A stretch of 64,000 bases of DNA from Trypanosoma brucei (Eukaryota). This document shows positions 60,001 through 63,000 of the stretch, piece after piece (positions within the stretch are counted from its first letter, which is position 1; the number at the start of each line of letters is the position of its first letter). Location: positions 192,001-256,000 of the forward strand of contig CP000068.1 of assembly GCA_000002445.1 (NCBI GenBank). Reading direction: 5' to 3'. The position numbers were made by a program.

Positions 60001-63000
60001 TTTGTTCTTGAATGTGTGAGTAGCGGTATGATGTTATATGAAAGGTGGGGTCGCAGGGCGGTCGTGTCCAGTCCTTGCATCGATGGGCCCCCTACTTTGC
60101 TGTGGGTTGTGATCAGTGTGTTCGGCATCGTCGGTCTGTTTGGTTTTCCTTCCTTCTCATTGCCCTTTGTCTTTATTCGTTTTTGCGCTTCGAACAAGCG
60201 TGGTAAGTACAACTGAAAATAGGCGTAACGGTCCCTTAAAGTGAAAGGGTTGTTTTGCGCAACCACTTAGTGTCAGCTCACCGGATCAGTGAGCATATCC
60301 ATCATTGCAAAAGTATTGTTCGCTCCTCTATGGCGTCTGTGTCTAGGCGCGACGAGTCGGGATGGCGTCGACGTTTGAGAGCCCTACGTGAAGAAATAGC
60401 GCGAGAAGGCAGCCCGGAGCGGGAACTCTCCATTAAGAAGCTTCGGAACAAAGCGGTAGATTTTCTCAAGGGGAGTGGGCCTGGCAGTGGAGACAGCGGT
60501 GACTTCTTTGACGACGCTGAAACGACGCTGCTTCGTGAGATCAGCGATGACTCCCGTTTGAATATGCCCGACAACGAAGTGCAACCTGCGCCGTGGACCC
60601 AAGATTCCGCGAGCAGAGTGATTTACCGCTACTCGCTACTTTCCAGTGGGCAAGACGGTGAGATGGCTTGTGCTAATGATCAGTCGCTGGGGCTGCAGGA
60701 GCTCTTGGGACAGCACGTGTCGAAGTGGGTCAAGAAGCCGGAAGCGCTGATGACCCCCACATCTACCCGTCAGGGATCGGCCTCTGCAACGTCGTCTGAT
60801 TCAGCTTTTGACTCAACGTCGCCAACCCCCACAGAATTATCTGATTCAGCAGTAGACCCGACAGCACCGAACTTCAAAGCGCCACGTGAATCAGCAGGAG
60901 ACTCCACAGCACCAACCTCTACCGACAAGGCATCCATGCCTCAGTTGCTCAACAGTGGTGAGAAGTGTCCAACGCAATCTGTGAATGATCATTCGGAGAG
61001 TAGTACTGAGAGCGAGGAGGAGCGGCATGAGGAGGGGCTTTTTGAGATTGATTGATGTGGATGCTTCAGGTGGATGATCTTTGAGTCGCTTGCATTCTTG
61101 AGATAACTGCTTTTTTAAACAATATACTTAATGAATTAAGTTCACATACATGTATTCTTGTGTGGAGGATCATAACTGGGGGTGGCTGTGGAGTTGTGTA
61201 TAGCCATATGAGTGCTCTGAGGAGATGCCACACGCACACCACAGTTCACAGACGAAATTGGTACACTATATATACCTCCCTTTGAATAATCTGCCACTCA
61301 GCTTCGACCACGATATCTTCCAGCAAGGTAAGACGTGGAGAAAAGGAACCATTTGTAAAGACAGAGTGGTACAAATTAGTGGTACTTCCCGTGTTAGGTG
61401 TCCTTGACCGTCCCCCCCTCGCCAAGTAGGAGTTTGATACAGCGCAGTCGTCTTGCTTTTTATGTTCAGTGCAGGAGCTAGTGAGGAAGCGTACCTCCAG
61501 CAGCTACGCGGCATCCGCCAAAAACTTCACCTGAAGAACAGTGAGGTGTGGGAGCAAACTGTGGATTCTTATTTGTGTGATGCGGTAGATTTTCTCAAGG
61601 GGAGTGGGCCTGGCAGTGGAGACAGCGGTGACTTCTTTGACGACGCTGAAACGACGCTGCTTCGTGAGATCAGCGATGACTCCCGTTTGAATATGCCCGA
61701 CAACGAAGTGCAACCTGCGCCGTGGACCCAAGATTCCGCGAGCAGAGTGATTTACCGCTACTCGCTACTTTCCAGTGGGCAAGACGGTGAGATGGCTTGT
61801 GCTAATGATCAGTCGCTGGGGCTGCAGGAGCTCTTGGGACAGCACGTGTCGAAGTGGGTCAAGAAGCCGGAAGCGCTGATGACCCCCACATCTACCCGTC
61901 AGGGATCGGCCTCTGCAACGTCGTCTGATTCAGCTTTTGACTCAACGTCGCCAACCCCCACAGAATTATCTGATTCAGCAGTAGACCCGACAGCACCGAA
62001 CTTCAAAGCGCCACGTGAATCAGCAGGAGACTCCACAGCACCAACCCCCGCACCGCTACCTCCCGCCGGCTCGGGTGTCCCCCTTCCCCCAACTACAGCC
62101 GGAAAGAGTCATCAAGATTGTTCGCGGCTGTCGCGGAAACGCTCTTACCAGTTTCTCAAATCGTAAGAAACGTACAATATTGGCACCGTCTGGCCTCGAA
62201 CACGGGAATCACTGCCCGCACACTCATAAAACGGCAGAGTAGGGGATAATTTTTACGACACGCTCTCGTGGCTGCAGTTGGTATTCGTTGCTCGCCGTTA
62301 CCTTTCGTAGCGTGTGTTTGTGCGTGGCCTTCTTCCTTACTTTTTGGTGCATTTGTGGTTCCTGCCTGCATCCGTGTTGTTGCTGTTTCAGGTATGTTTA
62401 CTGCATTCGTTGGCCTTCATTTACCCACCAGTACGGTGACCTGCACATAAACCATACCCCCTGTTGCAACCGCGGCCCACACCCCAACAGCCGAGGTGTG
62501 GGTTTAAAGTAAGAGGACATGAGAGGTGATTACTTCGTCTACTCTTTCCAATCCCACTGTTACTGCGCTGTGGAAACATGTGTCCTGTACCTCGTTTGTG
62601 ATGTGTTCATGCAAGAGACGTTGGTACTTTCGCGTGGGCGCATCTTCTAGCGGCGGTGAAAAGCGGCAGCCTAAAGACACGATAGGCCGCAGAAAACTTT
62701 TTCTGACCTTACGACATGTTGTGAAGGCTATAGACACCGCAGCGTGTTCTTTGTGGTGTGCACGGACTTTTTGCGACGTGGCATTACGACTTATGCCCCG
62801 TTACTATGTCTGTGACATTGCCCCGTTCTTCCTTATTGCACTGGTCCCTTCGGGTATTTTGTGCTTCGGTAACGATGCACGATTCTGCAGTGCAGACTCG
62901 TGCTTAAGTACTGGCACAGTCATTGCAACCGTACAGCTCAATTGTCTCCCCGCAGTACTTTTCCTTGCTTTCTTTTTGTACATACGCTTAGGCAGTCAGA

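What the first reader, a model, noticed from the sequence alone, without database searches (positions are those of the whole stretch)
60255..62166. Very recent tandem gene duplication with swapped termini (perfect 465-bp shared core)
Two adjacent small genes share a 100% identical 465-bp block (60453-60917 = 61582-62046, 155 codons) but have unrelated N-terminal about 45 aa and C-terminal about 40 aa. Perfect identity against diverged flanks indicates a very recent duplication or conversion, or an assembly issue. The result is two proteins with the same acidic Ser/Thr-rich core but different ends (acidic EEERHEE tail vs Pro-rich PAPLPPAG tail). This may mean different localisation or partners.
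Basis: seen in the sequence. Interest (0 to 1): 0.5.

Follow-up and report, generated by a model that had tools for sequence, protein, structure and literature searches.

The report
Old gene pair homogenised by conversion
Two neighbouring Trypanosoma brucei genes (Tb927.5.720 and Tb927.5.730) are old tandem copies of a small trypanosome protein whose middle 465 bases were recently overwritten from one copy to the other by gene conversion, which is a well-known and ordinary process in this parasite's tandem genes.

Summary
Window 60453-60917 and 61582-62046 are 465/465 identical, 1129 bp apart, and the flanks are at chance-level identity. The window is T. brucei brucei TREU927 chromosome 5, and the genes are Tb927.5.720 (g1) and Tb927.5.730 (g2).

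The duplication is not recent, and the ends are not swapped or unrelated. T. b. gambiense DAL972 and the independently assembled T. equiperdum IVM-t1 carry both genes with the same two sets of ends. There, g1's core is a mosaic: the first 53 bp are only 70% identical to g2, one 45-bp unit is missing, and the rest is 99% identical. At three core sites both copies agree within a genome but differ between genomes, which indicates concerted evolution.

Distant relatives exist in T. congolense, T. rangeli and T. grayi. The T. grayi gene is a single copy in the same gene order. Both brucei N-termini align to these relatives; g2 is 43% identical to T. congolense and g1 is 23%.

The best reading is an old tandem pair whose core is kept identical by interlocus gene conversion, most recently from g2 into g1 in the TREU927 lineage. 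T. equiperdum OVI shows one fused gene, exactly one 1129-bp period short. This is either a real deletion or, quite plausibly, a short-read assembly collapse.

Protein function is unknown. This is an ordinary case of a known phenomenon.

The parts
60330..61055 (+). g1 = Tb927.5.720, 241 aa. This is the upstream, faster-diverging paralogue, with a basic N-terminus and an acidic C-terminal tail.
   Evidence: The exact protein is in the collection as XP_844746.1 / Tb927.5.720. ORF. The N-terminus is 23% identical to T. congolense, against 43% for g2. Both TREU927-versus-gambiense differences in its N-terminus change the amino acid (60420 R>W, 60441 L>F).
61462..62166 (+). g2 = Tb927.5.730, 234 aa. 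This is the downstream copy, which looks like the orthologue of the ancestral gene. It has a Pro-rich, basic C-terminal tail and is the likely donor of the last conversion.
   Evidence: P0003 (XP_844747.1, Tb927.5.730) matches this ORF over all aligned residues. It lies next to the 209-aa gene, as the single copy does in T. grayi, T. congolense and T. rangeli. N-terminus 15/35 identical to T. congolense.
60453..60917 (+). Core copy 1, the converted tract in g1 (465 bp, 155 codons).
   Evidence: 100% identical to 61582-62046. In T. b. gambiense and IVM-t1 the same stretch of g1 is a mosaic.
61582..62046 (+). Core copy 2, in g2, the inferred donor.
   Evidence: The gambiense g2 has the TREU927-type sequence across the block that differs in gambiense g1.
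60453..60505 (+). The 53-bp block newly homogenised in the TREU927/OVI lineage. It marks the older left boundary of the tract at about 60505/60506.
   Evidence: In T. b. gambiense, g1 versus g2 is 35/50 identical plus a 3-bp indel here, against 352/355 in 60506-60860. The chance of that many substitutions arising at the background TREU927-gambiense divergence (0.9%) is about 6e-15.
60797..60923 (+). Three degenerate 45-bp (15-aa) repeats at the 3' end of core copy 1. Gambiense and IVM-t1 g1 lack one unit (60861-60905).
   Evidence: family D2, spacing 45; 45-bp gap.
61926..62052 (+). The same three 45-bp repeats in g2.
61056..61461 (+). Unique intergenic spacer between g1 and g2. It carries a pyrimidine-rich tract followed by AG at about 61400-61429, a candidate trans-splice acceptor for g2.
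   Evidence: Sequence. No similarity to the region upstream of g1. The splice-site role is inferred from the sequence only.
60140..60198 (+). Pyrimidine-rich tract followed by AG upstream of g1, a candidate trans-splice acceptor.
   Evidence: Sequence. Inferred, not tested.

Best explanation
g1 (Tb927.5.720) and g2 (Tb927.5.730) are old tandem paralogues of a small protein found across the genus Trypanosoma. The protein has an N-terminal domain of about 135 aa that is predicted, at low confidence, to be mostly helical, and the T. brucei copies add a disordered, acidic tail rich in Ser, Thr and Pro. After the duplication, the non-coding flanks and the terminal 40 or so codons at each end diverged to saturation, with g1 diverging faster. 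The central part has been homogenised repeatedly by non-reciprocal homologous recombination between the two copies, which lie 1129 bp apart (interlocus gene conversion). In the lineage of TREU927, shared with T. equiperdum OVI, the latest event copied g2 sequence into g1. That event pushed the left edge of the tract 53 bp further, to 60453, and restored the third 45-bp unit, leaving 465 identical bases with sharp edges where the homology runs out. The comparative pattern is shown here. The recombination mechanism, the direction of transfer and the role of heterology in stopping the tract are inferred.
For: 1. The identity is exact with sharp boundaries.
2. Both genes, each with its own ends, are present in T. 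b. gambiense DAL972 and in T. equiperdum IVM-t1. These two assemblies differ from each other by 17 mismatches and 9 gaps over 8.7 kb. IVM-t1 was assembled de novo from PacBio and MiSeq reads.
3. In those genomes the g1 core is a mosaic: 70% identity to g2 in 60453-60505, 99.2% in 60506-60860, and one 45-bp unit absent.
4. At 60547, 60744 and 60808 both paralogues carry one base in TREU927 and another in gambiense, so the copies evolve in concert.
5. The block that differs is private to gambiense g1, while gambiense g2 matches TREU927 g1 and g2. This gives the direction g2 to g1.
6. The OVI contig joins the g1 N-terminus directly to the g2-type core at 60453. This independently confirms the converted left junction.
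7. Age of the pair: no similarity is left in the UTRs or intergenic DNA. In-register N-terminal nucleotide identity is 36% against 25% in other registers (p=0.006). The N-terminal protein local alignment is collinear (p about 0.01).
8. Relatives exist in T. congolense, T. rangeli and T. grayi (E 4e-7 to 3e-4). The T. grayi gene is a single copy in conserved gene order. Both brucei N-termini align to them.
9. Concerted evolution and chimaeric copies are documented as common in T. brucei tandem arrays (PMC1855330).
Against: No DNA-level outgroup was available, so the polarity of the three 'concerted' sites cannot be assigned. They need conversion or parallel change in at least one lineage, not necessarily in both. 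Homology of the C-terminal tails is weak (p about 0.05), so replacement of one tail by another mechanism is not excluded. The TREU927 reference is a single haplotype consensus, and I could not inspect reads. The T. congolense and T. rangeli contigs end 167 and 318 bp upstream of the gene, so the date of the duplication relative to T. congolense is open.
Confidence: 0.85

Rival explanations
1. A very recent tandem duplication of a single gene, after which the two copies acquired unrelated or swapped ends.
For: The core is 100% identical over 465 bp.
Against: Both copies, with the same two pairs of ends, occur in T. b. gambiense and IVM-t1. The gambiense g1 keeps a block that is 70% identical inside the 'core'. 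No flanking non-coding DNA is shared, which a recent duplication would leave behind. Both N-termini are homologous to the N-terminus of the outgroup proteins.
Confidence: 0.03
2. An assembly or consensus artefact in the TREU927 reference. Either the locus holds one gene, or the g1 core consensus was built from g2 reads.
For: Perfect repeats are a classic site of mis-assembly. PMC1855330 warns of chimaeric mis-assemblies in T. brucei arrays. The OVI short-read assembly shows a single fused gene.
Against: Two copies are present in DAL972 and in the de novo IVM-t1 assembly. Each TREU927 junction is seen independently. The g1 N-terminus to g2-type core junction is in OVI. The core to g1 tail, the spacer, and the g2 N-terminus to core junction are in gambiense and IVM-t1. 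From my own knowledge, a 465-bp repeat is shorter than a Sanger read, so single reads can span it.
Confidence: 0.05
3. A partial duplication, in which only the core segment was copied into a pre-existing unrelated ORF. This would be domain capture rather than a whole-gene duplication followed by divergence of the ends.
For: DNA similarity stops abruptly at both edges, and nothing outside the ORFs is shared. The similarity between the C-terminal tails is marginal.
Against: The conserved family domain begins at about residue 10, upstream of the core, and both N-termini align with it in register. Identity in gambiense g1 falls in steps (99%, then 70%, then about 38%), as expected from nested conversion tracts on an old whole-gene duplicate.
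Confidence: 0.05

Closest known systems
[quoted passage not shown]
   Same: The paralogues are adjacent, on the same strand and co-transcribed. Copies within a genome are more alike than orthologues are. The copies are chimaeric or mosaic, showing partial and biased conversion. Homogenisation and divergence coexist at one locus.
   Different: This is only a two-gene array, and it is not named in that paper's main text (its supplements were not checked). The homogenised tract is internal to the ORF. Both protein ends stay distinct, rather than the UTRs alone.
Non-allelic homologous recombination (unequal crossing-over) between tandem repeats that produces fusion genes
   Same: T. equiperdum OVI shows exactly one 1129-bp period missing and an in-frame gene made of the g1 N-terminus, the core and the g2 tail. 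This is the expected crossover outcome of the same recombination that produces conversion.
   Different: The OVI assembly used 2x150-bp reads, Velvet at k=33, and discarded contigs under 1 kb. A collapse of the 465-bp repeat, with loss of the 664-bp middle piece, would give the same picture.
Small uncharacterised proteins of T. congolense (CCD15721.1), T. rangeli (TraAM80_08352) and T. grayi (DQ04_04491030)
   Same: They share the N-terminal helices and the central motifs (LL.EI..D.R, PW, V.YRY..L, H.SKW) at 26-27% overall identity, and they sit at the same position upstream of the orthologue of the 209-aa gene.
   Different: They are shorter (155-177 aa). In the alignment T. congolense and T. 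grayi lack most of the long brucei Ser/Thr/Pro-rich stretch with the 45-bp repeats, and T. rangeli aligns to only part of it. T. grayi has one copy.

Membership tests
T. brucei tandem paralogues evolving in concert by interlocus gene conversion | Adjacent paralogues on the same strand | tested here: met
   g1 60330-61055 and g2 61462-62166, both on the + strand and 406 bp apart.
T. brucei tandem paralogues evolving in concert by interlocus gene conversion | Within the tract, paralogues in one genome are closer to each other than to their orthologues in a sister lineage | tested here: met
   Sites 60547, 60744 and 60808 are shared by both copies within TREU927 and within gambiense, but differ between the two genomes. 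The TREU927 paralogues differ at 0/465. TREU927 g1 differs from gambiense g1 at 20 or more sites plus two indels.
T. brucei tandem paralogues evolving in concert by interlocus gene conversion | Mosaic structure: an abrupt change of paralogue identity at the tract edges, with the edges differing between lineages | tested here: met
   TREU927 goes from 100% to about 36% at 60453. Gambiense goes 99.2%, then 70%, then about 38%, with the edge at about 60505.
T. brucei tandem paralogues evolving in concert by interlocus gene conversion | Duplication older than the identity suggests (the flanks are diverged homologues) | tested here: met
   Both copies are present in gambiense and IVM-t1. The N-termini align in register with each other and with the outgroups. 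The C-termini are only marginal (p about 0.05).
T. brucei tandem paralogues evolving in concert by interlocus gene conversion | Direct observation of the recombination event or of segregating converted and unconverted haplotypes | not testable with these tools
   This needs population resequencing or long reads. Only four assemblies were reachable.
Trypanosoma-wide small protein family (T. congolense, T. rangeli, T. grayi relatives) | Significant sequence similarity over the N-terminal domain | tested here: met
   phmmer E-values of 4.1e-7, 2.8e-6 and 3.3e-4 against 1.84 billion representatives, covering query residues 10-155. Invariant columns L68, I71, D74, R76, P88, S95, V97, R100 and W133.
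Trypanosoma-wide small protein family (T. congolense, T. rangeli, T. grayi relatives) | Conserved gene order | tested here: met
   In T. grayi locus L007 the order is the orthologue of the 965-aa gene, then a single family member, then the orthologue of the 209-aa gene. In T. congolense and T. rangeli only the downstream neighbour could be checked, because the contigs end just upstream.
Trypanosoma-wide small protein family (T. congolense, T. rangeli, T. grayi relatives) | Membership of a curated family or similarity to a solved structure | tested here: not met
   No Pfam hit reaches the curated cut-off for any member. No PDB sequence match at E up to 10.
NAHR deletion / fusion gene (T. equiperdum OVI) | Loss of exactly one repeat period, with the breakpoint inside the identical tract | tested here: met
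   A 1129-bp gap and only 2 substitutions in the other 2285 bp.
NAHR deletion / fusion gene (T. equiperdum OVI) | The single-copy state is real in the organism and not an assembly collapse | not testable with these tools
   The assembly was built from 2x150-bp reads with Velvet at k=33, and contigs under 1 kb were discarded. Read depth over the core was not available.

The most novel reading that the evidence does not exclude
Conversion may be confined to the core because selection keeps the two end pairs distinct. g1 has a basic N-terminus and an acidic tail; g2 has a mildly acidic N-terminus and a basic, Pro-rich tail with an RKR motif. The pair would then work as two isoforms of one module with different partners or locations. 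The single g1N-core-g2C fusion in T. equiperdum OVI could also be a genuine deletion. In that case, a lineage that is not transmitted by tsetse would have reduced the pair to one chimaeric protein.
Probability: 0.12. Interest if true: 0.35.

Novelty: new member of a known kind. Interest (0 to 1): 0.2.

Why it matters
The main value is in annotation and method. First, it gives a clean worked example of how perfect identity between neighbouring genes can mislead about the age of a duplication. Second, the label 'T. brucei spp.-specific protein' carried by the gambiense orthologues is wrong, because syntenic relatives exist in T. congolense, T. rangeli and T. grayi. Third, the 235-aa T. equiperdum OVI protein TEOVI_000613600 (XP_067079784.1) may be a chimaera created by assembly collapse. 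Fourth, short reads, qPCR primers or RNAi fragments placed in the 465-bp core will hit both genes. The published Tb927.5.720 primer pair is specific to g1 only through its reverse primer. It does not open a new biological question.

Tried and rejected
- **Protein family and structure by sequence.** Pfam scans of both proteins, their neighbours and the three outgroup relatives gave nothing above the cut-offs. A PDB profile search gave 0 hits at E up to 10.
- **Structure prediction.** An AlphaFold2 model from the 7-sequence alignment had mean pLDDT 50.4 and pTM 0.17. Only four helices and a short strand pair in residues 6-133 were above noise, and residues 135-241 had pLDDT below 50. It was too poor for a fold search, so none was run.
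- **Residual DNA homology.** A blastn search with word size 7 of the upstream and downstream non-coding flanks found nothing below E=0.3, apart from the trivial self-overlap of the spacer. This rules out a recognisable duplication unit larger than the ORFs.
- **Frameshifted tails.** I considered whether the two C-terminal tails could be frameshifted versions of each other. The tails show no DNA similarity, so I dropped the idea.
- **More family members.** A profile search with the family alignment returned no members beyond those already found.
- **Exact-protein look-ups.** Look-ups for Tb927.5.720 and Tb927.5.730 returned no contigs, so no further T. brucei strains (Lister 427, T. evansi, T. 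b. rhodesiense) could be compared.
- **Upstream copies in the outgroups.** I checked whether the T. congolense and T. rangeli contig starts hide an upstream copy. They end in low-complexity intergenic DNA with no family-like ORF, so the question stays open.
- **Literature.** Only one paper names either gene, as a qRT-PCR target, and it makes no functional statement.
- **RNA families.** An Rfam scan of the whole window found no matches.

Full report
**1. The observation**

Window 60453-60917 and 61582-62046 are identical at all 465 positions. The match cannot be extended by one base on either side. The two copies are 1129 bp apart. Ungapped identity in the adjoining 30-300 bp is 30-39% on the left and 20-27% on the right. 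The repeat finders recover the same pair and no further copy in the 64-kb window.

Both copies lie in frame in two ORFs on the + strand. The 3' end of each copy holds three degenerate 45-bp repeats.

**2. Identity of the locus**

The two products match GenBank proteins of Trypanosoma brucei brucei TREU927 chromosome 5:
- g1 is Tb927.5.720, 241 aa, ATG at 60330. It is an exact match in the collection.
- g2 is Tb927.5.730, 234 aa, ATG at 61462. It matches over all aligned residues.

The shared block is 155 codons. The non-shared ends are 41 and 40 aa at the N-terminus and 45 and 39 aa at the C-terminus.

Neighbouring genes in the window include an F-box protein and a 965-aa protein upstream and a 209-aa protein downstream. 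Further upstream are ISG65/75 genes, a trans-sialidase, a receptor adenylate cyclase and a VSG-domain ORF.

**3. Comparison with other T. brucei-group genomes**

T. b. gambiense DAL972 (L001, L003) and T. equiperdum IVM-t1 (L004) both carry two genes, of 225 and 234 aa, in the same order and with the same two pairs of ends. These are separate assemblies. They differ by 17 mismatches and 9 gaps over 8.7 kb. IVM-t1 was assembled de novo from PacBio and MiSeq reads.

In both genomes the g1 core is a mosaic relative to g2:
- 60453-60505: 35/50 identical plus a 3-bp indel
- 60506-60860: 352/355 identical
- 60861-60905: one 45-bp unit absent
- 60906-60917: 12/12 identical

The background TREU927-gambiense divergence in the locus outside the cores is 22 substitutions in 2484 bp, or 0.9%. 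The cluster in 60458-60505 therefore cannot be new mutation (Poisson p about 6e-15). It is older g1 sequence that TREU927 has lost.

In that block gambiense g2 equals TREU927 g1 and g2. The TREU927 state is therefore best explained by transfer from g2 into g1.

At 60547, 60744 and 60808 both paralogues carry one base in TREU927 and another in gambiense. This is the signature of concerted evolution.

**4. T. equiperdum OVI**

The OVI contig (L002) differs from the window by a clean 1129-bp gap and two substitutions. This gives one 235-aa gene made of the g1 N-terminus, the core and the g2 tail.

That is what a crossover between the two identical cores would produce. However, the OVI genome was built from 2x150-bp reads with Velvet at k=33, and contigs under 1 kb were discarded. 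A collapse of the 465-bp repeat, with loss of the 664-bp middle piece, would look the same. I leave this undecided.

Either way, the contig joins the g1 N-terminus directly to g2-type sequence at 60453. This independently confirms the converted left junction seen in TREU927.

**5. Are the ends unrelated?**

Outside the ORFs nothing is shared. Inside the ORFs the evidence is as follows:
- The N-terminal 120 nt are 36% identical in register, against a mean of 25% (maximum 34%) in other registers (p=0.006).
- The best local protein alignment of the N-termini is collinear with the core (p about 0.01 against shuffles).
- The C-terminal tails give only p about 0.05.

The stronger evidence comes from outgroups. 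An exhaustive phmmer search found relatives in T. congolense (155 aa, E 4e-7), T. rangeli (177 aa, E 3e-6) and T. grayi (170 aa, E 3e-4). The alignments start at about query residue 10, upstream of the core.

In T. grayi the gene is a single copy lying between the orthologues of the 965-aa and 209-aa genes. In T. congolense and T. rangeli it lies directly upstream of the orthologue of the 209-aa gene, but the contigs end just upstream of it.

Both brucei N-termini align with the outgroup N-termini. g2 is 15/35 identical to T. congolense, g1 is 8/35, and g1 versus g2 is 8/40.

So the whole gene was duplicated. g2 is the conservative copy, and g1 has diverged faster. Both TREU927-versus-gambiense differences in the g1 N-terminus change the amino acid. 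The two differences in the g2 tail fall at third codon positions and look synonymous, because both genomes encode the same tail.

The label 'T. brucei spp.-specific protein' on the gambiense entries is therefore too narrow.

**6. Mechanism**

The comparative pattern is shown. The mechanism is inferred. Repair by homologous recombination between two copies 1129 bp apart yields non-crossover products (conversion tracts) and, more rarely, crossovers (loss of one period). Tracts stop where the partners are too different, which explains the sharp edges.

Repeated events keep the core nearly identical: 99% in gambiense and 100% in TREU927. The ends lie outside any usable homology and keep diverging.

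This matches the general account of T. brucei tandem arrays, where 21 of 47 arrays contained chimaeric copies attributed to partial, biased conversion (PMC1855330).

**7. The proteins**

There is no Pfam family and no PDB relative.

The AlphaFold2 model is of low confidence (mean pLDDT 50, pTM 0.17). It predicts helices at 6-26, 29-47, 62-72 and 122-133, and a short strand pair. Residues 135-241 are below pLDDT 50. This fits a small N-terminal domain followed by a disordered tail, but it does not establish a fold.

The core is acidic (net charge -13). The ends carry opposite charges: g1 N-terminus +6 and C-terminus -9, g2 N-terminus -2 and C-terminus +5. Whether this gives different partners or locations is untested.

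One paper lists Tb927.5.720 qRT-PCR primers. The forward primer lies in the shared core, at 60671 and also at 61800. The reverse primer lies in the g1-specific tail at 60958, so the amplicon is specific to g1. The paper's main text does not report the result for this gene.

**8. Verdict**

The interpretation as a very recent duplication with swapped termini is not supported.

This is a further example of a well-documented process in this organism, with some annotation consequences. Interest is low.

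Noticed in passing
window 5977-7814 (weaker copies from 5829 to 7904): A tandem array of about 12.4 copies of a 148-bp AT-rich unit, 99% identical between copies, in a low-GC stretch (GC 0.37). Literature places 147-bp 'CIR147' satellite repeats, which are putative centromeric and a source of siRNAs, on T. brucei chromosomes 4, 5 and 8 (PMC3447711). This is probably the chromosome 5 array. I did not compare the unit sequence with a published CIR147 unit.
   Followed up: partly
window 11429-18584, - strand: Three tandem ORFs of 428, 421 and 401 aa (11429-12715, 14605-15870, 17175-18380) all match Pfam ISG65-75, the invariant surface glycoprotein family (E 1e-88 to 1e-100). 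A 260-bp repeat, 99% identical (12660-12919 = 18325-18584), overlaps the 5' ends of the first and third ORFs and runs into the sequence upstream of each. This looks like another tandem array with partial homogenisation.
   Followed up: partly
window about 18.4-27 kb: The long ORFs switch from the - strand (ISG genes, up to 18380) to the + strand (from 26970 onward). This suggests a divergent strand-switch region between two polycistronic units. The cumulative GC skew turns at about 21-22 kb.
   Followed up: no
window 26970-39274, + strand: A cluster of surface or host-interaction gene families: a trans-sialidase-like protein (BNR_3 plus TS_C), a receptor-type adenylate cyclase (1281 aa), and an ORF with a VSG_B domain that starts at GTG, so it may be a pseudogene or a VSG-related gene.
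   Followed up: no
L002 6001-6708 (T. equiperdum OVI, CZPT02001031.1): The annotated protein TEOVI_000613600 / XP_067079784.1 (235 aa) is a g1N-core-g2C chimaera, one 1129-bp period short of TREU927. Given the short-read Velvet assembly, it may be an assembly collapse that has entered the protein databases as a real gene.
   Followed up: partly
L001 6001-7789; database entries CBH10964.1 and CBH10965.1: The gambiense orthologues are named 'T. brucei spp.-specific protein'. However, syntenic relatives exist in T. congolense, T. rangeli and T. grayi, so the name is inaccurate.
   Followed up: yes
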